DNA from: Bdellovibrionota bacterium
GTDB lineage: Bacteria > Bdellovibrionota_C > UBA2361 > CALJRW01
Length of the DNA stretch: 64,000 nucleotides
NCBI GenBank assembly: GCA_041740355.1
Contig: JBGSMD010000030.1
Span: 1 to 64,000, forward strand
Reading direction: 5' to 3'
In this document: piece by piece, positions 12,561-62,342 of the stretch
Numbering within the stretch: position 1 is the first letter of the stretch
How the letters are laid out: every line of letters begins with the position of its first letter
Notes under the pieces: generated by a model
What the model saw: only the letters and a program-made list of their open reading frames with translations
Databases searched by the model: none
What the model was told of the DNA's origin: nothing
Made by a program: the position numbers and the translations under genes

Positions 12561-13340
12561 TTATTGTTTTAACTGACGATCAATAATTGTTTGGAAGTGA
12601 CTAAGTGGGTAAGCACCTTTCACTAACACACCGTTGACTACGAATCCTGGAGTTCCAGAAATTCCAATTTTGCCAGCTTCTTTAGCATCATCATCAACTT
12701 GTTTGGAAAGAGCTGGATCGGCCATATCTTTCTTGAATTTATCAACATTAAGACCTAACTCTTTAGCAGTACTTACATATAGTTCTTCTCCTAAACCTTT
12801 TTGATTAGCAAATAACTTATCATGCATTTCCCAGAATTTTCCTTGCTTGCCAGCAGCCAAAGCAGCTAGAGCGGCAGGTTTAGCATTCTTATGGAATGGC
12901 AACGGTAAGTTTTTGAAAGCAACTTTTACATCTTTAGGGTATGCTTTTAAGATTTCTTCAACAGTTGCAGCACCACGGCTACAGAATGGGCACTCAAAAT
13001 CAGAGAATTCTACAACAGTAATCTTAGCATCTTGTGGTCCTTTTGTTGGAGCACTACCAACATCAACCTTAATCGGGTTTTTGAATTGGTCTTCTAAGCT
13101 TTGCTCTTCTTGTTTAGCACGATCTGCTTGAGCTTTTTGTTGTTGTTTTTGGAAGTAGGCTTGCATCGAATCACCGATTTTTTCCATTCCACTTTCAGTC
13201 TCTAAGTATGCTGCCATTGCTTTTGCAAAAGCTTCATTAGAGATTTCTCCACTTGGAGCAGCATCTATTTGCTGAGCTTGTTGACAAGCCAAAGCAATTA
13301 ATAGAAAGCTACCGGCAATAATCTGTTTAAATTTTGACAT
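12561..13340 (-). CDS. DsbA/thioredoxin-4 family lipoprotein
   Basis: Lipobox ALAC; VEFSDFECPFC, LPLPFH, GKFWEMHD and GTP motifs. Confidence 0.9.
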   Translation of the reverse strand: MSKFKQIIAGSFLLIALACQQAQQIDAAPSGEISNEAFAKAMAAYLETESGMEKIGDSMQAYFQKQQQKAQADRAKQEEQSLEDQFKNPIKVDVGSAPTKGPQDAKITVVEFSDFECPFCSRGAATVEEILKAYPKDVKVAFKNLPLPFHKNAKPAALAALAAGKQGKFWEMHDKLFANQKGLGEELYVSTAKELGLNVDKFKKDMADPALSKQVDDDAKEAGKIGISGTPGFVVNGVLVKGAYPLSHFQTIIDRQLKQ

Positions 13341-13408
13341 ATTAGTTCCGTAAATTAATAATTAGTTTAAAAAAAATAGGACATTATAACCAAGACGTAA
13401 ATAATGAT

Positions 13409-13602
13409 ACCCTCCGCAAATTAAATTTGTTTAGGGCGAGCGTAATCTTGGCTATGCCAAGTTACGCCGTAAAAGACAAAACCAATACTCACCGCTGATT
13501 AGCGTAGGGTTTGGTAGTGTTTTCTAAGGCAAAACCTGTCTTTAACATGATTTTGCTCGCTCACCTTCTTTTCATTTTTTATCAAAATGAAAAGAAGGTG
13601 AG
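13409..13602 (+). repeat. Structured dispersed element family C, copy 1
   Basis: Aligns with the reverse complement of 42379-42618 and partly with 36476-36540. Contains nested stems. Confidence 0.85.
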
Positions 13603-13999
13603 TATTTAAGCTTGGCTATATTTGCAATCCCCAATAAAGTAATCTTGATTGCTCCTGACTACTTTAAAATTTGTCCTAAAGGGGAGGCTAGCAACCTTAC
13701 CATATTACCTTCTATTTGTTAGAAAATAATCAAGTGTATTTGCCAATAAGAATCAACAACTATATACTTTATGCTCAATGAATTTATAGTCATTTGATTA
13801 CTTTTGTTGTAAACAATAAAAGTATAATCACGACTATAAAGTGTTAATTTTCGATTCCGAGCTGGTTAGCCAAGCTTGAAACTCGATAATTTCTACATCA
13901 ATGAACTTTTAAGTATATATTGACGTAACTCTTATACTTCAAGTTGGCAGATAACGCCAATTGGTTTTTTGGACTAATGACTAATATTCTATATTCAAT

Positions 14000-14569
14000 A
14001 TGAAAAAAATTATTTTACTTTTTACTTTAATTTTGGGTACTTACATGAATGCAAATGCAGAAAACATTAAAGCAACCTTAGAAACAACTAAGGGGAACAT
14101 TGAGATCGAACTATTTTCAGATGCTGTTCCGATGACTACCGCCAATTTTGTTAACTTATCTAAAAGAGGATATTACAATGGCTTGTCTTTTCACCGTGTT
14201 ATTCCTGATTTCATGGTTCAAGGTGGAGATCCAACAGGAACTGGCGCTGGCGGACCTGGTTATAAATTTGGTGATGAAACAAAGCCAAATTTAAAACATG
14301 ATGTTCCAGGAATACTCTCAATGGCTAATGCTGGACCAGGAACAAATGGCAGTCAATTTTTTATCACTCATGTTGCAACTCCTTGGCTTGATGGCAAACA
14401 CACTGTCTTTGGAAAAGTGTTAAAGGGTCAGGATATTGTAGACAGTATTGCCCAAGGGGACAAAATTACTAAAGTAGCATTAACAGGAAATGTCGATGCC
14501 TTGTTAGCTTCAGTTCCTCAGGTAAAAGAGTGGAATGTTGTCTTAGATAAAACATTTCCAGTGAAATAG
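14000..14569 (+). CDS. ppiA: Cyclophilin-type peptidyl-prolyl isomerase
   Basis: [29 protein letters not shown] and [11 protein letters not shown]-terminal signal-like stretch. Confidence 0.93.
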
Positions 14570-14721: not shown

Positions 14722-15744
14722 ATGAGCTTGGAAAATATAATTGATATCAAAAAACAATTTCATTTAGAACAAGCAGCTGTTCTAGATGACGTACAACTCA
14801 ACACTTTTCGTCTAGCATGGTTAGGCAAAGAGGGGATTTTAAAGAAATTATTTTCCAAGCTTAAAGATGTACCGCTTGCCGATAAACCCACTTTCGCACA
14901 AGAGATTAATAGTCTGCGCGATCAAGCAGAAGAGTTTGTGCGCCTTAAACAAGAAGAGTTTGCCGCGGGACAGCGAAATAAAAAACTAGCTGAAGAGTAT
15001 TTAGATTTATCCCTACCAGCTAATTATTTAGGACTCGGAAAGGTTCACCCAATTCGTTTGGTAGAAAGAAAAATAACTAAAATTCTTAAGAAATTTGGAT
15101 TTAGCTTTGTTGAAGGGCCTGAAGTAGAAACCGAATATTATTGTTTTGATGCCCTAAATATTCCTAAACATCATCCAGCAAGGGACATGCAGGACACTTT
15201 TTTTACAGAATCAGGACATGTGCTTCGAACGCACACGACAGCAATTTTATCGCGAGAGTTAGAGAAAAAAAATTTACCACTGAAAAGTATTTATGCCGGA
15301 CGAGTTTATCGTAATGAAACGGAGGATGCTTCGCATCAAGCAATGTTTCATCAGTACGATTTAGTATGGATTGAAGAGGGAATTGGTCTCAGTCATTTAA
15401 TGGGTTTGATGGAAGCTATCTTAAAAGGTGTATACGGCCAAGAGCGAAAAGTTCGTTTTGTTCCAAAATTTTACCCTTACACTGAACCAAGTCTTGGGGC
15501 ACAAATTGATTGTGCTTTATGTGAAGGAAAAGGTTGTCCCGCTTGTGATGGTGCTGGATGGGTAACAGTTGCTGGTTCCGGAGTCGTGCACCAGAACGTA
15601 ATTAAAGAGTTTGGATTTAATCCCGATATTGTTGGTGGCATAGCTTTTGGATTTGGAACCTCTCGTCTCGCGGGTCAATTCTTTAATGCTCCAAATTTAA
15701 AAACTCTTTACGATGCAGACCTGCGTTACTTAGGAGCTTTGTAG
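14722..15744 (+). CDS. pheS: Phenylalanyl-tRNA synthetase alpha subunit, divergent
   Basis: LGKEG coiled coil, GKVHP, FDALN.P.HPARDMQDTF, LRTHT, GRVYR, FHQ, TEPS, a Zn-type CxxC/CxxC pair and AFG.G. Several conserved positions differ (see findings). Confidence 0.9.
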   Translation: MSLENIIDIKKQFHLEQAAVLDDVQLNTFRLAWLGKEGILKKLFSKLKDVPLADKPTFAQEINSLRDQAEEFVRLKQEEFAAGQRNKKLAEEYLDLSLPANYLGLGKVHPIRLVERKITKILKKFGFSFVEGPEVETEYYCFDALNIPKHHPARDMQDTFFTESGHVLRTHTTAILSRELEKKNLPLKSIYAGRVYRNETEDASHQAMFHQYDLVWIEEGIGLSHLMGLMEAILKGVYGQERKVRFVPKFYPYTEPSLGAQIDCALCEGKGCPACDGAGWVTVAGSGVVHQNVIKEFGFNPDIVGGIAFGFGTSRLAGQFFNAPNLKTLYDADLRYLGAL

Positions 15745-17780
15745 TGAAACTAGATTTAGCACTTTTAAAATCATTTATTACCCTACCAGAGATTGCACCA
15801 ACTGAACTACGTCATGTTTTTGATGATCTTGGATTGGAAGTCGAGGGTATTGAGGATGCTTTTGGAAAGGTAATTTTTAATATTGAGACTCTTGCTCATC
15901 GCGGTGATCACTTATCAGCACTAGGAATTGCGCGAGAGTTTGCAGCGCGTTATTTAAAACCACTAACATTTCCTGATTTACTTAATGAATTACCAAACAC
16001 ACCTTCAACAATTGCTATAAAAATTGATACTGAATTTTGTTTGGGATACTCACTATTAGCAATTGATTTACCTGATGCTTTGCAATTGGCTACTACAATT
16101 CATAAATATTTGGATCCAGAATCGGGACAACATCCGATTGTACAGTTATCTAATTTTGTTTTAACTGAGTTAGGACAACCGACACATGCTTTCGATGCCG
16201 CTAAGCTTGAAGGAGGTTTACAGGTTATTGTTAGTACGCAAGAAGAAGAAATTATTGGACTAGATCTCAAAAAATATTTAGTGCCAGCCAGCTCACTTTT
16301 AATTAAAGATTCTAAAAAAACAGTCGCTGTTGCTGGAGTAATTGGTTGTGCCAATTCTATGGTTACCTCAGAAACTAAGCAAGTTGTTATTGAGTCGGCG
16401 ATTTTTTGTCCAACACATGTTCGTAAAACTGCTCGTGCTATGGGCTTATCAACTGATGCTTCCTACTTATTTGAACGGGGAGCGGATATTTATTTGCCGG
16501 ATTTAGCTTTGCGACGAATTGCTAAATTGGTTTTAAATGCTAGGCCCTCAGCATTTAGTTCAGTTAAGAATCTTCCGCCACTTTTAAATTTAGAAATCGA
16601 GATTGGTCGTTTTAGATGGCATCTTAATCAACCGGAGTTATTACCGGCTAAAGTCCAAGAAAGGCTTTTAGCTCTTGGATATCATGTAGAGATTATCGGA
16701 GAAAAATTGAAATGTTTGGTTCCAAGTCATCGCTATTGGAATGTTAAAACGGAAGCTTGTGTAATTGAAGATTATTGTCGAACAGTAGGATATAACTCTA
16801 TTCCGGCAACGATTCCCCAAACCGTAATGCCTGATGTGCTAGATCATCCTAGTGAATTTTTAATTGATGCCTTTGAGCCTATTTTGACAGCACAGGGTTT
16901 CAATGAGGTAATTACACGTTCTTATTATTCCAATGATGAAGTAGATTTAATTGCTGAGCTTGATCAAGAACTTGCCAGTCAGCACTTAAAAATCATCAAT
17001 TCACTAGAAGGCGCTTATTCTAATCTAAAATTAACTAATATTCTCCACTTAGCAAAAGTAATTAATCGTAATTTAAGATTTAATATTCCTACTGTGAAAA
17101 TCTATGAGTTTGGGAGAATATTTAATAATCAAGGATTTCCTCAAACTCCCTATCAGTTAGAAAAAGATTTTTTAACTTTGGCTTTTGCTGGTCGTTGGTA
17201 TGATAATAGTTGGAAAAAACCAGTTGGGCTTGTGGAGAACTTAGCAAATTTTAGTGGTGTACTAACAAGTTTATTGTCAAACTTAAAGATTGATTTTCAG
17301 ATCCTTCCGAGTAAAAACCCTTTATTACATCCAGGACGACAATCACAAATTGTTTCTAATTCAAAAACACTAGCTGTCTTTGGTAGTATTCATCCGCTAC
17401 TTAAAGATCGCCTCGGATTTAAAGAGGAAATGATTTTTGCTGAAGTATTTCTTGATGAATGTTATCAACTTAAAAAAATAAAATCAGAATTTCAAATAAT
17501 TGACTATCCACCAATCAAGTGGGATTTAACATTTAAAGTACCTCGCCGAGTAGCAGCTTCTCGTGTTTTGCAGGTAATCGAAGAAGCGAATCCGCAATTT
17601 TTAAAATCGGCAGTGATCGTAGATTCCTTTGATAAACCAGATGAGAATTTCACACGTATTTCATATCGCTTTCACTTTCAAGAAGTATCGCGAACATTAA
17701 GTAATGAGGAAGTTGATCAAGTAATTGCTAAATTATTGGTAGACTTGAAGGAACAACATCAATTAGAAATTGTCAGCTAA
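15744..17780 (+). CDS. pheT: Phenylalanyl-tRNA synthetase beta subunit, short form lacking the B2 OB-fold, divergent
   Basis: GLEVE, RGDHLS..GIARE, GQPTHAFD, TDAS..FERG, LHPGR and the C-terminal ..RTL..EEV. GTG start overlaps the pheS TAG. Confidence 0.9.
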   Translation: MKLDLALLKSFITLPEIAPTELRHVFDDLGLEVEGIEDAFGKVIFNIETLAHRGDHLSALGIAREFAARYLKPLTFPDLLNELPNTPSTIAIKIDTEFCLGYSLLAIDLPDALQLATTIHKYLDPESGQHPIVQLSNFVLTELGQPTHAFDAAKLEGGLQVIVSTQEEEIIGLDLKKYLVPASSLLIKDSKKTVAVAGVIGCANSMVTSETKQVVIESAIFCPTHVRKTARAMGLSTDASYLFERGADIYLPDLALRRIAKLVLNARPSAFSSVKNLPPLLNLEIEIGRFRWHLNQPELLPAKVQERLLALGYHVEIIGEKLKCLVPSHRYWNVKTEACVIEDYCRTVGYNSIPATIPQTVMPDVLDHPSEFLIDAFEPILTAQGFNEVITRSYYSNDEVDLIAELDQELASQHLKIINSLEGAYSNLKLTNILHLAKVINRNLRFNIPTVKIYEFGRIFNNQGFPQTPYQLEKDFLTLAFAGRWYDNSWKKPVGLVENLANFSGVLTSLLSNLKIDFQILPSKNPLLHPGRQSQIVSNSKTLAVFGSIHPLLKDRLGFKEEMIFAEVFLDECYQLKKIKSEFQIIDYPPIKWDLTFKVPRRVAASRVLQVIEEANPQFLKSAVIVDSFDKPDENFTRISYRFHFQEVSRTLSNEEVDQVIAKLLVDLKEQHQLEIVS

Positions 17781-18835
17781 TGAAGAAGACTTTAAAAAAA
17801 CGCTTAACTACTCCCGAGACCTCAATTGAGATTCCTATGAAATGGGTTGGACCATTGCAATTTAAAGGTAATGTTTTGAGCGAAGCAGTTGAAATTCCAC
17901 TTGCTACTTTTGAAACACCTTTATGGCCCTCCGTTGATCGCGGAATCCGCGTAGCTAATCAGTCGGGCGGAGTTTTCGTTGCTGTCGATCAAGAATCAAT
18001 GACTCGTTCATTTGCAGTGGAAGCAAGCAGTTTGGAGCAAGCGGTCACTGCTCAACAAATAATCAAAGACAGTTTTAGTAAGTTTGAAGGAATAGTTGCC
18101 GAGAATAGTAGCTATGCCAAGCTTTTACGAATTGATACCGAAATTATTGGTCGGATTATCTTTATTCGTCTAGCAATTAATTCAGCCGATGCTTCGGGTC
18201 ATAATATGGCGACTAAGTCAGCTGAAGCAATTTTAAATCAGCTACTAACAGAAAACCAACAGCTAAAATACGTAACACTGTCTGCAAATTATTGTTCAGA
18301 TAAGAAAGTTTCTGCAGTTAACGGAATTTTGGGAAGAGGGCGAAGTTGTTTAGCGGAAATAGCTATCAGTCGCCAAGTATGTCACAAACTTTTACGCACT
18401 ACTCCAGAGACTCTTTGTGAACTTAATACTAAGAAAAATTTGTTAGGTAGTATTTTAGCAGGAAGTATTCGTAGTGCTAATGCCCATTTTGCCAATATGC
18501 TTTTGGCTACTTATCTAACAACGGGGCAGGATGCTGCCAATATCGTAGAAGGCTCACAGGGGATAACGTTTGCGGAAGTTAATAATGATCAGCTTTTATT
18601 TTCTGTTAAAATTCCTAATATTATCGTCGGAACAGTGGGCAATGGAAAAGGTTTAAGTTTTGTTCAAGAAAATCTATTAAAAATGGGATGCTTGACCGAG
18701 AACGCTAATGGTGAAAACTCTAAACGTTTAGCTGCAATAATTGCGGGAGCAGTATTATGTGGGGAGCTTTCGCTTCTAGGGGCGCTTGCAAATCCTGGCG
18801 AATTAATGAAATCACATCTAACATTAGAACGATGA
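17780..18835 (+). CDS. mvaA: HMG-CoA reductase (short bacterial class I type)
   Basis: PLATFETPLWPSV.RG, DASGHNM, NYCSDKK, SANAHFAN, GQDAANIVEGS, GELSLL and the C-terminal His. Confidence 0.9.
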   Translation: MKKTLKKRLTTPETSIEIPMKWVGPLQFKGNVLSEAVEIPLATFETPLWPSVDRGIRVANQSGGVFVAVDQESMTRSFAVEASSLEQAVTAQQIIKDSFSKFEGIVAENSSYAKLLRIDTEIIGRIIFIRLAINSADASGHNMATKSAEAILNQLLTENQQLKYVTLSANYCSDKKVSAVNGILGRGRSCLAEIAISRQVCHKLLRTTPETLCELNTKKNLLGSILAGSIRSANAHFANMLLATYLTTGQDAANIVEGSQGITFAEVNNDQLLFSVKIPNIIVGTVGNGKGLSFVQENLLKMGCLTENANGENSKRLAAIIAGAVLCGELSLLGALANPGELMKSHLTLER

Positions 18836-19857
18836 GCGAAATTAACAACCGCAAATTAGATCATATTAAGATTGTAAAGGAAGATTCGTCAGTGGATCGC
18901 AGTTTAAATTATTTCGATCAAATTAATTTAACACATCGAGCACTTCCTGAAATTAATCTTCAAGAAGTAGATACTAGCTGTAATTTTTTAGGGAAAAAAT
19001 TATCATTTCCTTTGATCATTAGTTCTATGACTGGAGGGACAGGAGAGGAATTAAAAAAAATCAACCAAAATTTAGCGATTGCTGCTGAGCATTGTCAGGT
19101 TGCCCTAGGAGTGGGATCGCAACGTATAATTTTTTCCAACGATTCTGCTAAAGAAAGTTTTAAATTAAGAGCTTTTGCTCCAACAACTTTACTTTTTGCA
19201 AACATTGGAGCGGTACAACTCAATTATGGATTTACGGAAAAGCATTGTTTAGAAGCAATTAATCTATTAGAAGCAGACGCGCTATATCTTCATTTAAATC
19301 CACTACAAGAAGCAATTCAAAGTGAAGGTGATACCAACTTCTCAAATTTGTCAAAAAAAATTGAGCAGCTTATTTCCAAACTTAAAGTTCCAATTATTAT
19401 TAAAGAAGTTGGTTCGGGAATTTCAGTTGCTGATGCAAGGCTTTTAAAGTCAATTGGGATCAGATACCTTGATCTTGCTGGGAGTGGAGGAACTTCTTGG
19501 AGCCGTATTGAGCAGTTAAGAAAAATTAATCCTGAAAATAATTTAGGATTAACTTTTCAAGATTGGGGAATTCCTACACCGGTAGCCATTAAAGAGATTA
19601 TTAAAGCAAATTTACAATTGAAATTAATTGCTTCTGGTGGAGTAAGAAATGGTATCGACTTATTGAAAGCACTTGTCCTAGGCGCAGAGATTGGTGCAAT
19701 TGCTAATCCATTTTTAAAACTAGCTATGGATTCGCCGGAAGCTGTAATAGCAAAAATTAACGAACTTCAATCAGAGTTCCGATTAGGAATGTTTCTTTTG
19801 GGACAAAAGGATACAACTGGTTTAATAGATAATAAGGATCTAATGCTAAGCAAATAA
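18832..19857 (+). CDS. fni: Type 2 isopentenyl-diphosphate isomerase
   Basis: RKLDH, SSMTGG, GVGSQR, HLNPLQE, KEVGSG, GGTSW and SGGVR. ATG at 18832 overlaps the upstream TGA (ATGA). Confidence 0.93.
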   Translation: MSEINNRKLDHIKIVKEDSSVDRSLNYFDQINLTHRALPEINLQEVDTSCNFLGKKLSFPLIISSMTGGTGEELKKINQNLAIAAEHCQVALGVGSQRIIFSNDSAKESFKLRAFAPTTLLFANIGAVQLNYGFTEKHCLEAINLLEADALYLHLNPLQEAIQSEGDTNFSNLSKKIEQLISKLKVPIIIKEVGSGISVADARLLKSIGIRYLDLAGSGGTSWSRIEQLRKINPENNLGLTFQDWGIPTPVAIKEIIKANLQLKLIASGGVRNGIDLLKALVLGAEIGAIANPFLKLAMDSPEAVIAKINELQSEFRLGMFLLGQKDTTGLIDNKDLMLSK

Positions 19858-54975: not shown

Positions 54976-55055
54976 TGCGGAAGGAGGGACTTGAACCCTC
55001 ACGCCGAAGCACTAGATCCTAAGTCTAGCGTGTCTGCCAATTCCACCACCCCCGC
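54976..55055 (-). tRNA. tRNA-Leu(TAG)
   Basis: Reverse complement reads GCGGGGGTGGTGGAATTGGCAGACACG-CTAGA-CT-TAG-GA-TCTAG-...GGTTCAAGTCC...CCGCA. Variable arm present; CCA not encoded. Confidence 0.95.
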
Positions 55056-62266: not shown

Positions 62267-62342
62267 GGGCGCTTAGCTCAGTTGGTAGAGCAATAGCCTT
62301 ACAAGCTATGGGTCACAGGTTCGAGCCCTGTAGCGCCCACCA
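62267..62342 (+). tRNA. tRNA-Val(TAC)
   Basis: GGGCGCTTAGCTCAGTTGGTAGAGCA-ATAGC-CT-TAC-AA-GCTAT...GGTTCGAGCC...GCGCCCACCA; 76 nt. Confidence 0.97.

What the first reader, a model, noticed from the sequence alone, without database searches (positions are those of the whole stretch)
14722..17780. Phenylalanyl-tRNA synthetase with remodelled catalytic, metal and editing positions
Seen, against the bacterial consensus recalled from memory. Alpha: RTHTSPxQxR becomes RTHTTAILSR; FHQxEG becomes FHQYDL (amine-binding Glu to Asp); YFPFTEP becomes FYPYTEP (both pocket Phe to Tyr); WxE becomes WVT; motif-3 GxER becomes GTSR. Beta: B2 domain absent; editing-site GGxES becomes GCANS; Mg-site RxDI...DLIEE becomes RYWNV...CVIED; NP..E...MR becomes NSL.G...LK. 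The anticodon-domain D and RTL are kept. Caveat: RTHTT and PYTEPS occur in archaeal/eukaryotic PheRS and B2 loss is known, so part of this may be tolerated. Concerted loss of acidic residues in both subunits is what looks odd. Inference: either a fast-evolving housekeeping PheRS, or a paralogue charging a modified or other aromatic substrate, or one resistant to inhibitors.
Basis: partly seen in the sequence, partly recalled or inferred. Interest (0 to 1): 0.72.

Follow-up and report, generated by a model that had tools for sequence, protein, structure and literature searches.

The report
Divergent but ordinary housekeeping phenylalanyl-tRNA synthetase
This is the bacterium's only phenylalanine-tRNA-charging enzyme, from a widespread, little-studied branch of the family that lacks one domain and several acidic active-site residues but keeps its proofreading site, so it is unusual in detail and not a new kind of enzyme.

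Summary
pheS (14722-15744) and pheT (15744-17780) are the only PheRS genes in a 97%-complete genome of an uncultured Bdellovibrionota-like MAG. Both are under strong purifying selection.

Most of the "remodelled" positions are not peculiar to this gene. They are invariant in about 55 related species. They are also shared with a large environmental PheRS clade that has a B2-less beta subunit and an alpha subunit with K-x-Y-P-Y, G, T and S/T at E. coli positions 246/248/250, 256, 268 and 300.

Two of the lost glutamates (E. coli E256 and E268) are the ones that hold an active-site Mg2+ in the M. tuberculosis structures. Their loss goes with a gained lysine.

The editing site is not remodelled. 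N254, H265, G318, E334, T354 and A356 are all kept. A few changes are specific to the genus: alpha Q->L and E->D, beta D->N and D->C. These sit on a branch that is also long for rpoB.

Two deep PheRS types are spread patchily across this phylum. The paralogue and new-substrate readings are not supported.

Verdict: a lineage-specific housekeeping PheRS, and a new variant of a known kind. Interest is moderate to low.

The parts
14722..15744 (+). pheS, PheRS alpha subunit (340 aa)
   Evidence: TIGR00468 scores 263 bits against a cut-off of 237.45. Pfam finds tRNA-synt_2d and Phe_tRNA-synt_N. The best solved relative is P. aeruginosa 4P71 chain C, E 1.4e-73. It is the only PheS-like gene in G000. 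The second, weak PF01409 hit is HisRS.
15744..17780 (+). pheT, PheRS beta subunit without the B2 domain (678 aa)
   Evidence: Pfam finds B3_4, B5 (26 bits, below its 28.6 cut-off), the CLM domain and FDX-ACB. TIGR00472 scores 386.5 against a cut-off of 402.65, matching profile positions 158-797 only. It is the only pheT in G000.
15226..15255 (+). Alpha RTHTTAILSR: His171, Thr173 (Ec S171) and Leu176 (Ec Q174) of the hydrogen-bond network around the substrate's amino group
   Evidence: T173 is clade-wide (52 of 54 other type A). Q176 is invariant in the 54 others, and L occurs only in this genus. Function is taken from PMC8136816: Mt His175, Ser177 and Gln180.
15346..15363 (+). Alpha FHQYDL: Gln211 is kept, Asp213 replaces Ec E210, Leu214 replaces Ec G211
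   Evidence: the other type A sequences have E in 49 and D in 5 of 54, and L in 51 of 54. D210 goes with T171 in 12 of 15 other representatives.
15466..15504 (+). Alpha pocket strand KFYPYTEPSLGAQ: K249 (Ec S246), Y251/Y253 (Ec F248/F250), T254, E255, G259 (Ec E256), Q261 (Ec D258)
   Evidence: K in 53 of 54; Y, Y and G each in 54 of 54; the same K/Y/Y/G states occur in the wider subfamily. K at Ec246 always goes with a non-acidic residue at 256 (12 of 12).
15511..15546 (+). Alpha Cys4 knuckle insertion (C-x2-C-x4-C-x2-C)
   Evidence: It aligns with the same insertion in the P. aeruginosa and S. haemolyticus PheS structures. The cysteines are kept in 52 of 54 type A sequences.
15559..15567 (+). 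Alpha WVT: Thr282 replaces Ec E268 (Mt E279, a ribose and Mg2+ ligand)
   Evidence: T in 54 of 54. T in the wider subfamily. Searches give the function from PMC8136816.
15643..15666 (+). Alpha motif 3, AFGFGTSR: Ala308 (Ec A294) and Arg315 (Ec R301) are kept; Ser314 replaces Ec E300
   Evidence: A in 54 of 54, R in 54 of 54, S in 48 of 54. (PMC7948948) equates Ec R301 with Mt R312 and describes Mt E311 (= Ec E300 by my offset) as a water-mediated contact with a bound inhibitor; (PMC8136816) describes the same residue as a water-mediated contact with adenine N3.
15855..15866 (+). Beta junction where the B2 (tRNA_bind, OB-fold) domain is missing, between residues A39 and F40
   Evidence: alignment: E. 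coli residues from about 42 to about 148 have no counterpart. The same holds in all type A sequences shown and in 9 of 9 subfamily metagenome loci.
16152..16463 (+). Beta B3/B4 editing pocket: N137, QPTHAFD (H148), IGCANS (G201, C202), VIESA (E217, A219), STDAS (T237, A239)
   Evidence: Ec N254, H265, G318, E334, A336, T354 and A356 are kept in the query and in 53-54 of the 54 other type A sequences. Residue roles come from PMC8599791 and PMC3275996.
16722..16772 (+). Beta B5/B6 acidic motif PSHRYWNV...ACVIED
   Evidence: the other type A sequences have W-R-x-W-D-V ... D-x-x-E-D/E (D in 51 of 54 at Ec454, D in 52 of 54 at Ec460, E in 54 of 54 at Ec463). The query genus has H, N and C/S. The extra W is subfamily-wide.
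16998..17030 (+). Beta catalytic-like-module motif NSLEGAYSNLK
   Evidence: type A has N in 54 of 54, S or A instead of P at the next position, and K in 49 of 54 instead of R.
17505..17768 (+). Beta C-terminal anticodon-binding FDX-ACB domain (B8)
   Evidence: Pfam PF03147, E 6.9e-15, residues 588-675.
12561..14569 (.). Conserved upstream neighbours: a DsbA-like thioredoxin protein (12561-13340, minus strand) and cyclophilin (14000-14569, plus strand)
   Evidence: Pfam. The same neighbours sit beside type A pheST in G020 contig C30. The DsbA-like gene also sits beside it in G041, which belongs to another order.

Best explanation
These two genes encode the cell's single, essential (alpha-beta)2 phenylalanyl-tRNA synthetase. 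It belongs to a deep, mostly uncultured branch of bacterial PheRS.

In this branch the beta subunit has lost the B2 OB-fold domain. The alpha subunit has exchanged a set of active-site residues (E. coli numbering): S171T, S246K, F248Y, F250Y, E256G, E268T and E300S/T. The enzyme still activates Phe, transfers it to an ordinary tRNA-Phe(GAA), and proofreads Tyr-tRNA-Phe in an intact B3/B4 editing pocket.

What is shown: gene identity, single copy, clade-wide conservation, purifying selection, retention of editing and specificity residues, and covariation.

What is inferred: normal Phe specificity and editing; and that the gained Lys (Ec246 position) compensates electrostatically for the lost Glu256/Glu268 carboxylates. 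In M. tuberculosis PheRS those two residues hold a Mg2+ beside the adenylate.

On top of the clade pattern, the window's genus carries a few further changes: alpha Q174L, E210D and M274V; beta W451H, D454N and D460C/S. These lie on a branch that is long for rpoB as well, which suggests a genome-wide faster rate and not a change of function.
For: Identity.

Single copy: G000 (3.27 Mb, 97.27% complete) has one PheS hit and one PheT hit. The other PF01409 hit is HisRS. There is one tRNA-Phe(GAA), with an A at the discriminator position by my reading of the printed sequence.

Clade-wide conservation: 54 other non-identical type A sequences keep T173 (52), K249 (53), Y251, Y253, G259 and T282 (54 each) and S314 (48).

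Wider subfamily:
- All P0151-P0199 proteins printed carry K/Y/Y/G/T/(S or T).
- 72 of the 73 rows tallied (70 sampled relatives of P0008, plus P0008 itself and the query) carry it too; the one exception is the E. coli reference.
- Their PheT lacks B2 in 9 of 9 metagenome loci examined.
- In the PheS tree, canonical (27 rows, 100*), subfamily (34, 98*) and type A (23, 98*) each form one side of a branch. Type A plus subfamily are joined at 100*.

Editing residues are kept (roles).

Selection, G000 against G001: pheS pN 0.063 and pS 0.739; pheT pN 0.121 and pS 0.710.

Synteny is conserved across families and orders. pheST shows no compositional anomaly.

Tolerance of the changes:
- Human cytosolic PheRS has Tyr at the F250 site, Asn at the F248 site and Ser at the Q174 site.
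- D210 co-occurs with T171 in 12 of 15 representatives, against 4 of 114 without D210. It co-occurs with loss of Q174 in 6 of 15, against 5 of 114.
- K246 co-occurs with a non-acidic residue at 256 in 12 of 12.

Genus branch: the stem is 0.87 in the PheS+PheT tree and 0.45 in the rpoB tree. Private substitutions at near-invariant sites number 3 in PheS and 9 in PheT. That is high but not the maximum; other lineages reach 8 and 14.
Against: No biochemical data exist for any member of this clade that I could find.

Losing both Mg2+-ligand glutamates and the motif-3 Glu is a substantial change to an active site that is otherwise highly conserved. E at Ec268 is present in 125 of 129 other representatives. 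Altered kinetics, metal dependence or substrate range therefore cannot be excluded from sequence.

L at Ec174 and L at Ec211 have no precedent in the 129 representatives.

PheT falls just below NCBIfam's cut-off, and its B5 hit is below Pfam's.

Beta R244, said to contact the tRNA backbone at C75, is S in the query and mostly G in type A.

dS between G000 and G001 is saturated, so dN/dS values are rough.

The mapping from M. tuberculosis to E. coli numbering was done by offsets taken from two papers, not from an alignment.
Confidence: 0.8

Rival explanations
1. A xenologous PheRS type is kept, or repeatedly exchanged, because it resists a natural PheRS inhibitor or a toxic Phe analogue met in the environment. 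On this reading the two PheRS types in the phylum are alternative alleles under such selection.
For: Two deep PheRS types are distributed patchily. On an rpoB tree of 50 genomes the A/B label needs at least 7 changes, 5 of them forced by starred branches. G002, the sister lineage of the query genus (98*), has the other type on a 27.6-kb contig. Its neighbouring genes are 53-61% identical to G000 genes. G020 carries both types. The changed residues line the Phe/adenylate pocket that the inhibitors described in PMC7948948 occupy. Resistant aaRS duplicates are a known phenomenon; this is recalled and not checked here.
Against: No inhibitor, biosynthetic cluster or mobile element lies next to the gene, and synteny is conserved. 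Apart from G020, each genome has a full alpha-beta pair of only one type (a second full-length PheS-like hit in G120 was not examined further). G020's second pair sits on a contig with little similarity to G000 and could be mis-binned; that MAG has 4% contamination. The AU test does not reject vertical descent of type A (p 0.19). Mis-binning in MAGs could inflate the patchiness.
Confidence: 0.1
2. A PheRS-derived enzyme with changed amino-acid specificity (Tyr, m-Tyr, or a modified or other aromatic substrate) or with lost proofreading.
For: Both pocket Phe residues are Tyr. The Glu, Ser and Gln of the amino-group hydrogen-bond network are Asp, Thr and Leu. L174 and L211 have no precedent in 129 representatives.
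Against: It is the only PheRS in a 97%-complete genome, so it must supply Phe-tRNA-Phe. The pocket-bottom residues T (Ec251) and A (Ec294) are kept in 54 of 54; their role as specificity determinants is recalled. Tyr at the F250 site is invariant in eukaryotic Phe-specific enzymes. The editing residues are all retained and invariant. There is a single, normal tRNA-Phe.
Confidence: 0.05
3. An assembly or binning artefact: the pheST contig belongs to another organism, and the genome's true PheRS was not assembled.
For: The genome is a MAG of 74 contigs. Other MAGs of the phylum show conflicting PheRS types within one genus (G027 against G038).
Against: The window lies on a contig of at least 64 kb with uniform GC. 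The same gene order is found in a second species of the genus at 91% and 81% protein identity, and in other families. No other PheRS was found in G000.
Confidence: 0.02

Closest known systems
Canonical bacterial (alpha-beta)2 PheRS (E. coli 3PCO, P. aeruginosa 4P71, T. thermophilus 1PYS, M. tuberculosis 7DAW)
   Same: It has the two-gene pheS-pheT arrangement. Alpha has the N-terminal coiled coil and a class II core, with the motif 2 and motif 3 arginines, His/Gln at the amino-acid site, and the T and A at the pocket bottom. It also has the Cys4 knuckle seen in P. aeruginosa. Beta has the B3/4 editing domain with all named editing residues, plus the B5, CLM and FDX-ACB domains.
   Different: There is no B2 domain. 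Alpha S171T, S246K, F248Y, F250Y, E256G, D258Q, E268T, E300S and G211L. Beta G319C, R244S/G and an extra Trp in the R-x-W-D motif. Identity to the canonical PheS/PheT of the same phylum is only 29-39% for alpha and 24-27% for beta.
Environmental B2-less 'K-x-YPY / G / T / S' PheRS subfamily (proteins P0003, P0008, P0029, P0151-P0344; MAGs labelled Micavibrio sp., Alpha-, Gamma- and Deltaproteobacteria, Myxococcota, Planctomycetes)
   Same: It shares the alpha signature (T171, K246, Y248, Y250, G256, T268, S/T300) and the B2-less beta with I-G-C and H-R-x-W-D-V. It is the sister group of type A at 100* in the tree.
   Different: The subfamily keeps G211, D258 and P277, and mostly lacks the Cys4 knuckle. 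Type A has L211, Q258 and R277. Identity to the query is only 40-47%. Its organisms could not be identified beyond the MAG labels.
Archaeal/eukaryotic cytosolic PheRS (human 3L4G)
   Same: Thr after His-Thr, Tyr at the F250-equivalent site, no Gln at the Q174-equivalent site (Ser332 in human), and no B2 domain. The absence of B2 in this type is recalled.
   Different: The NCBIfam archaeal models score far below their cut-offs: NF003210 scores 177 against 350, and TIGR00471 scores 66.8 against 282.65. The query keeps the bacterial C-terminal anticodon-binding domain and the bacterial editing His (H148). Human PheRS is said to lack the anticodon-binding domain and to have Gly at the His site.
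Naturally editing-defective PheRS (Mycoplasma; human mitochondrial PheRS)
   Same: These are also lineage-specific departures from the PheRS consensus.
   Different: They have lost editing residues or the whole editing domain. For PMC3553970 I saw only the search listing. For mitochondrial PheRS I saw a passage in PMC3275996. Here every named editing residue is retained.

Membership tests
Bacterial PheRS alpha subunit (NCBIfam TIGR00468 pheS) | Whole-protein score above the curated cut-off | tested here: met
   263 bits against 237.45.
Bacterial PheRS alpha subunit | Class II catalytic residues: motif 2 Arg, motif 3 Arg, His and Gln at the amino-acid site, Ala at the pocket bottom | tested here: met
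   R197, R315, H171, Q211 and A308 are each present in all 54 other type A sequences.
Bacterial PheRS alpha subunit | Acidic residues at the adenylate/Mg2+ site (Ec E256, E268, E300) | tested here: not met
   G259, T282 and S314. E is present in 117, 125 and 74 (plus D in 42) of 129 other representatives. This is a consensus feature and not part of any curated definition, so membership is not withdrawn.
Bacterial PheRS beta subunit (NCBIfam TIGR00472 pheT_bact) | Whole-protein score above the curated cut-off | tested here: not met
   386.5 bits against 402.65, with only profile positions 158-797 matched. The shortfall corresponds to the missing B2 region.
Bacterial PheRS beta subunit | Domain set B1, B2 (tRNA_bind), B3/4, B5, B6/7 (CLM) and B8 (FDX-ACB) | tested here: inconclusive
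   B3_4, CLM and FDX-ACB score above their cut-offs. B5 scores 26 against 28.6. B2 is absent. B1 was not detected by Pfam, but an N-terminal stretch of 39 residues aligns with it.
Editing-competent PheRS | Editing-pocket residues Ec N254, H265, G318, E334, T354 and A356 | tested here: met
   All are present in the query and in 53-54 of the 54 other type A sequences. The list of residues comes from PMC8599791.
Editing-competent PheRS | Hydrolysis of Tyr-tRNA-Phe | not testable with these tools
   This needs an enzyme assay.
Archaeal/eukaryotic-type PheRS | Scores above the cut-offs of NF003210 (alpha) and TIGR00471 (beta) | tested here: not met
   177.4 against 350, and 66.8 against 282.65.
PheS-related ligase SrmL (NF051887) | Score above the cut-off | tested here: not met
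   102 against 300.
B2-less K-x-YPY PheRS clade (defined here) | Alpha K246/Y248/Y250/G256/T268/(S or T)300 together with a B2-less beta, and placement in the clade | tested here: met
   (clade support 100*).

The most novel reading that the evidence does not exclude
The whole B2-less clade, including this enzyme, has done away with the carboxylate-bound active-site Mg2+ of PheRS. Ec E256 and E268, the ligands seen in M. tuberculosis PheRS, are replaced by Gly and Thr. A lysine at the Ec246 position, on the pocket strand, takes over the role of neutralising the phosphate charge during adenylate formation. This would resemble the Arg-for-Mg2+ swap in HisRS (recalled). If so, the enzyme would show altered metal dependence. 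The altered pocket may also change its sensitivity to inhibitors that target it, which could explain why two PheRS types alternate among close relatives.
Probability: 0.15. Interest if true: 0.6.

Novelty: new variant of a known kind. Interest (0 to 1): 0.35.

Why it matters
[quoted passage not shown] Its active site is usually treated as nearly invariant in bacteria.

Here an entire, environmentally widespread branch of essential PheRS enzymes lacks both glutamates that hold the active-site Mg2+ in a solved bacterial structure. It also lacks the motif-3 glutamate and the B2 domain, yet it keeps proofreading. This offers natural test cases for several questions: what those residues are needed for, how Lys/Glu covariation rewires a class II active site, and whether B2 is dispensable in vivo.

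The patchy alternation of two deep PheRS types inside one small phylum is another example of aaRS gene replacement. For genome annotation, it shows that a PheT scoring just under the NCBIfam cut-off can still be the real housekeeping gene.

None of this changes the basic reading. It is the organism's ordinary PheRS.

Tried and rejected
Second pheST in the genome: none found. The weak second PF01409 hit is HisRS.

B2 supplied in trans: a 125-aa tRNA_bind protein exists (L004:1420-1797). It lies between ORFs whose translations look like DNA polymerase III delta' and TatD by eye, and nothing links it to PheRS. I did not pursue it.

Leader, T-box or other RNA element upstream of pheS: the Rfam gathering scan of the whole window found only two tRNAs, far from pheST.

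Odd tRNA-Phe: there is a single GAA gene with an ordinary sequence and, by my reading of the printed sequence, an A at the discriminator position.

Recent horizontal arrival: there is no GC anomaly and synteny is conserved.

PheRS-specific acceleration in the genus: rejected as the main explanation. rpoB has a long stem too, and other type A lineages have more private substitutions.

Congruence test: the AU test did not reject G000+G001+G016 as a clade on the PheS+PheT data (p 0.19). Neither vertical descent nor transfer is shown.

I did not use the protein-atlas search because its description says it is not for taxonomy.

Residues of the alpha/beta-interface Mg2+ site: not found in print. A search for Glu262 found nothing. 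PMC8136816 mentions 'a conserved magnesium ion' at the interface without naming its ligands.

Mermershtain et al. 2011 (PMC3047072) is not held.

Literature on Bdellovibrio PheRS or B2-less bacterial PheRS: 0 papers for 'PheRS, editing, Bdellovibrio'. Nothing relevant turned up for 'PheRS, B2 domain' or in the listing. These three searches are the whole basis for saying I found nothing in print. Supplementary files were not requested.

No structure or complex prediction was run. The tools return no coordinates, so they could not test side-chain geometry, and the alpha-beta pair is a textbook pair.

The counts of 54 'other type A' sequences are non-identical ORFs pooled from the genome search and genome-contig loci. 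Fragments under 300 aa (PheS) or 640 aa (PheT) were dropped before counting. The tree left out 12 rows of the set (long or redundant rows, named in the script). The figure of 67 of 124 genomes with a type A hit is my hand count from the table.

Full report
**What is there.** The interval holds two ORFs on the plus strand. pheS is at 14722-15744 (340 aa). pheT is at 15744-17780 (678 aa), with a GTG start that shares one base with the pheS stop.

PheS matches Pfam tRNA-synt_2d and Phe_tRNA-synt_N, and passes NCBIfam TIGR00468 (263 bits against a 237.45 cut-off). PheT has the B3_4, CLM and FDX-ACB domains and a sub-threshold B5 hit. It scores 386.5 against the 402.65 cut-off of TIGR00472, and only profile positions 158-797 are matched.

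The best solved relatives are bacterial PheRS structures: P. aeruginosa 4P71, at E 1.4e-73 for alpha and 2.4e-55 for beta. The archaeal-type models score far below their cut-offs.

**The observation.** The HMMER alignments to P. aeruginosa, S. haemolyticus, E. coli and A. baumannii PheRS show the same substitutions. B2 is cleanly missing: no query residue aligns to E. coli beta 45-148.

Against 129 full-length representatives of other PheS clusters from a library of 1.84 billion proteins, the query's states are rare:
- L at Ec174: 0 of 129.
- L at Ec211: 0 of 129.
- G at Ec256: 3 of 129.
- T at Ec268: 3 of 129.
- S at Ec300: 3 of 129.
- Y at Ec248: 10 of 129.
- Y at Ec250: 6 of 129.

**Is it the only PheRS?** Yes. 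The window lies in a genome of 3.27 Mb in 74 contigs, 97.27% complete and 0.42% contaminated. A PF01409 search found the window's pheS plus one weak hit, which NCBIfam identifies as HisRS (385 bits against 286.75). A TIGR00472 search found only the window's pheT plus a 125-aa stand-alone tRNA_bind protein. The same searches hit all 14 control genomes. The genome has one tRNA-Phe(GAA) of ordinary sequence, with an A at the discriminator position by my reading.

**Is it standard in the clade?** Yes, for most positions. The organism is an uncultured MAG. Its relatives are labelled Bdellovibrionota, Bdellovibrionales, Oligoflexia or Deltaproteobacteria bacterium. The phylum as held has 124 species genomes.

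By my hand count, 67 of these have a PheS that is 45-91% identical to the query. I call this 'type A'. Fifty have only a PheS of 39% identity or less ('type B', with a beta of about 810-870 aa that contains B2). Seven have no hit.

- T173: 52 of 54.
- L214: 51 of 54.
- W216: 54 of 54.
- K249: 53 of 54.
- Y251, Y253, G259 and T282: 54 of 54 each.
- S314: 48 of 54.

In beta, C202 is present in 51 of 54, and the extra Trp in the R-x-W-D motif and the N-S/A...K motif are also clade-wide.

**What is special to the window's genus (two species).**
- Alpha: Q176L (the other 54 all have Q), E213D (D in 5 of the other 54) and M288V.
- Beta: W329H, D333N and D339C/S. The others have W in 54, D in 51 and D in 52 of 54.

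The genus has 3 (PheS) and 9 (PheT) private changes at near-invariant sites. The medians are 1 and 0, and the maxima in other lineages are 8 and 14. Its stem branch is long both in the PheS+PheT tree (0.87) and in the rpoB tree (0.45, where end branches have a median of 0.26). I therefore read these extra changes as part of a generally faster-evolving lineage.

Within the genus, both genes are under strong purifying selection. For pheS, pN is 0.063 and pS is 0.739. For pheT, pN is 0.121 and pS is 0.710. dS is saturated.

**What the changed residues do (from papers).**

PMC8136816 (passages) describes M. tuberculosis PheRS:
- The Phe amino group binds His175 directly, and binds Gln215 and Glu217 through water.
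- Glu217 sits in a hydrogen-bond network with Ser177 and Gln180.
- A Mg2+ beside the pocket is held by Glu263 and Glu279.
- Glu279 also binds the ribose.
- Glu263 contacts the phosphate mimic through water.
- Glu311 contacts adenine N3 through water.

PMC7948948 (passages) gives the stacking of F255/F257 and equates Ec R301 with Mt R312.

Using the offsets these papers imply (+6, +7 and +11), I obtain this mapping:

| M. tuberculosis | E. coli | Query |
|---|---|---|
| S177 | S171 | T173 |
| Q180 | Q174 | L176 |
| E217 | E210 | D213 |
| F255 | F248 | Y251 |
| F257 | F250 | Y253 |
| E263 | E256 | G259 |
| E279 | E268 | T282 |
| E311 | E300 | S314 |

The mapping rests on arithmetic, not on a direct alignment.

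It follows that the three changes S->T, Q->L and E->D all lie in one hydrogen-bond network. The three lost glutamates all line the adenylate/Mg2+ site.

The same papers and PMC3275996 (section 5 read) show that a bona fide Phe-specific enzyme, human cytosolic PheRS, tolerates similar states. It has Tyr at the F257 site (invariant in eukaryotes), Asn at the F255 site and Ser at the Gln180 site.

**Covariation.** Among the 129 other representatives:
- D at Ec210 goes with T at Ec171 in 12 of 15, against 4 of 114 without D210 (Fisher p 3e-11).
- D at Ec210 goes with loss of Q174 in 6 of 15, against 5 of 114 (p 3e-4).

Among 135 representatives, K at Ec246 is always paired with a non-acidic residue at Ec256 (12 of 12). 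These fall into at least three different sequence patterns. Only 3 of the other 123 lack an acidic residue there. Related sequences are not independent, so the p-values overstate the case. Still, the pattern indicates that these are recurrent, compensated alternative states and not damage.

**The editing site is intact.** PMC8599791 (passages) names beta R244, N254, H265, G318, E334, T354 and A356. PMC3275996 names the T. thermophilus equivalents. Counting along the E. coli row of the HMMER alignment and in my MAFFT alignment with E. coli K-12 PheT gives the following:
- The query keeps N137, H148, G201, E217, A219, T237 and A239.
- These positions are kept in 53-54 of the 54 other type A sequences.
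- Only R244 differs (S in the query, mostly G in type A), and G319 is C.

**A wider family.** The nearest non-type-A clusters (P0003, P0008, P0029) share T171, K246, Y248, Y250, G256, T268 and S300.
- A search with P0008, and then with P0237, listed 120 relatives each. All relatives examined carry K/Y/Y/G/T/(S or T): every P0151-P0199 row, and 72 of the 73 rows tallied, where the one exception is the E. coli reference.
- The only names available are MAG labels: Micavibrio sp., Alpha-, Gamma- and Deltaproteobacteria, Myxococcota, Planctomycetes, and one Spirosoma areae record.
- In metagenome contigs, 17 loci carry this PheS (L221-L237). The 9 loci whose PheT I aligned all lack B2 and show I-G-C, H-R-x-W-D-V and D-L-x-E-E.
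- In an 84-row PheS tree, canonical sequences (27 rows, including this phylum's own type B), the environmental subfamily (34) and type A (23) each form one side of a branch (100*, 98*, 98*). Type A plus subfamily are joined at 100* (quick IQ-TREE, SH-aLRT only).

The window's enzyme therefore belongs to a deep, B2-less PheRS clade that is common in environmental data. No member has a solved structure: the best PDB matches are canonical enzymes.

**Distribution within the phylum.** On an rpoB tree of 50 genomes, the A/B label needs at least 7 changes, 5 of them forced by starred branches. For example, G002 (type B-like) is sister to the query genus at 98*. Its pheST contig (27.6 kb) carries neighbours that are 53-61% identical to G000 genes.

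Type A loci share upstream neighbours across families and orders: a DsbA-like gene, and in some a cyclophilin. The AU test does not reject a species-tree-like grouping of type A genes (p 0.19).

G020 has both types, but its type B contig shows little similarity to G000 and may be mis-binned.

I cannot decide between three possibilities: long coexistence of the two types with differential loss, repeated replacement by transfer, or binning noise.

**Conclusion.** This is the organism's ordinary, essential PheRS. It is a member of a divergent, B2-less clade in which the adenylate-site carboxylates have been replaced together with a gained lysine. A handful of further genus-specific changes are also present.

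It is not a paralogue, and nothing indicates a new substrate or lost proofreading. The one point of real enzymological interest is how this clade handles ATP and Mg2+ without Ec E256 and E268. That needs biochemistry.

Noticed in passing
window 17780-19857: Directly after pheT, sharing one base with its stop, lies a short class I-type HMG-CoA reductase (351 aa). TIGR00533 scores 293.9 against a 441.8 cut-off, and the profile's first ~58 positions are missing. It is followed by an FMN_dh-like ORF that looks like a type 2 IPP isomerase (my reading). Mevalonate-pathway genes therefore sit next to pheST in this genus. The G001 copy of the HMG-CoA reductase is 78% identical.
   Followed up: partly
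L147:13531-14958 (G020 contig C28): A 475-aa protein joins a PheS catalytic core to a C-terminal FDX-ACB anticodon-binding domain. This is the single-chain layout of mitochondrial PheRS. Its best NCBIfam matches are SrmL 'PheS-related mystery ligase' (240.9 against 300) and pheS_mito (214 against 258). It lies 5 kb from a type B pheST. Similar PheS-like hits of about 400-450 aa appear in G050, G065, G081, G091 and G099.
   Followed up: partly
L148:10793-11830 (G002) and L171 (G027): These two genomes come from different families, yet they share a very divergent PheS (sister at 100*, long stem). The H-T-S motif reads H-L-T, the conserved Gln is Ser, and the G-F-A-F-G motif reads G-A-Y-I-N. It is paired with a B2-containing beta. 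TIGR00468 scores 234.4, just under the cut-off. No other PheS was found in G002 (91% complete).
   Followed up: partly
L004:1420-1797 (G000 contig C63): A stand-alone 125-aa tRNA_bind (OB-fold) protein, of the same domain family as the missing B2. It sits between ORFs whose translations look like DNA polymerase III delta' and TatD by eye. It is about 5 kb from the genome's only tRNA-Phe gene.
   Followed up: partly
L149 (G038) and L150 (G014): These genomes also have short beta subunits of 687 and 697 aa. In G038, B2 is absent in the alignment and no tRNA_bind hit was found. For G014 only the length suggests the loss. Their PheS sequences fall outside type A, so loss of B2 seems to have happened more than once.
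   Followed up: partly
G042 contig C47:23158-24102: The type A PheS match in this genome contains one in-frame TAA.
   Followed up: no
window 54976-55055 (-) and 62267-62339 (+): Two tRNA genes are the only Rfam gathering-level hits in the 64-kb window.
   Followed up: no
P0163: A record named Spirosoma areae (Bacteroidota) carries a PheS of the B2-less subfamily on a 115-kb contig. It is the only hit in the lists whose name carries no MAG label. It may be a contaminant contig from another bacterium in that assembly.
   Followed up: no
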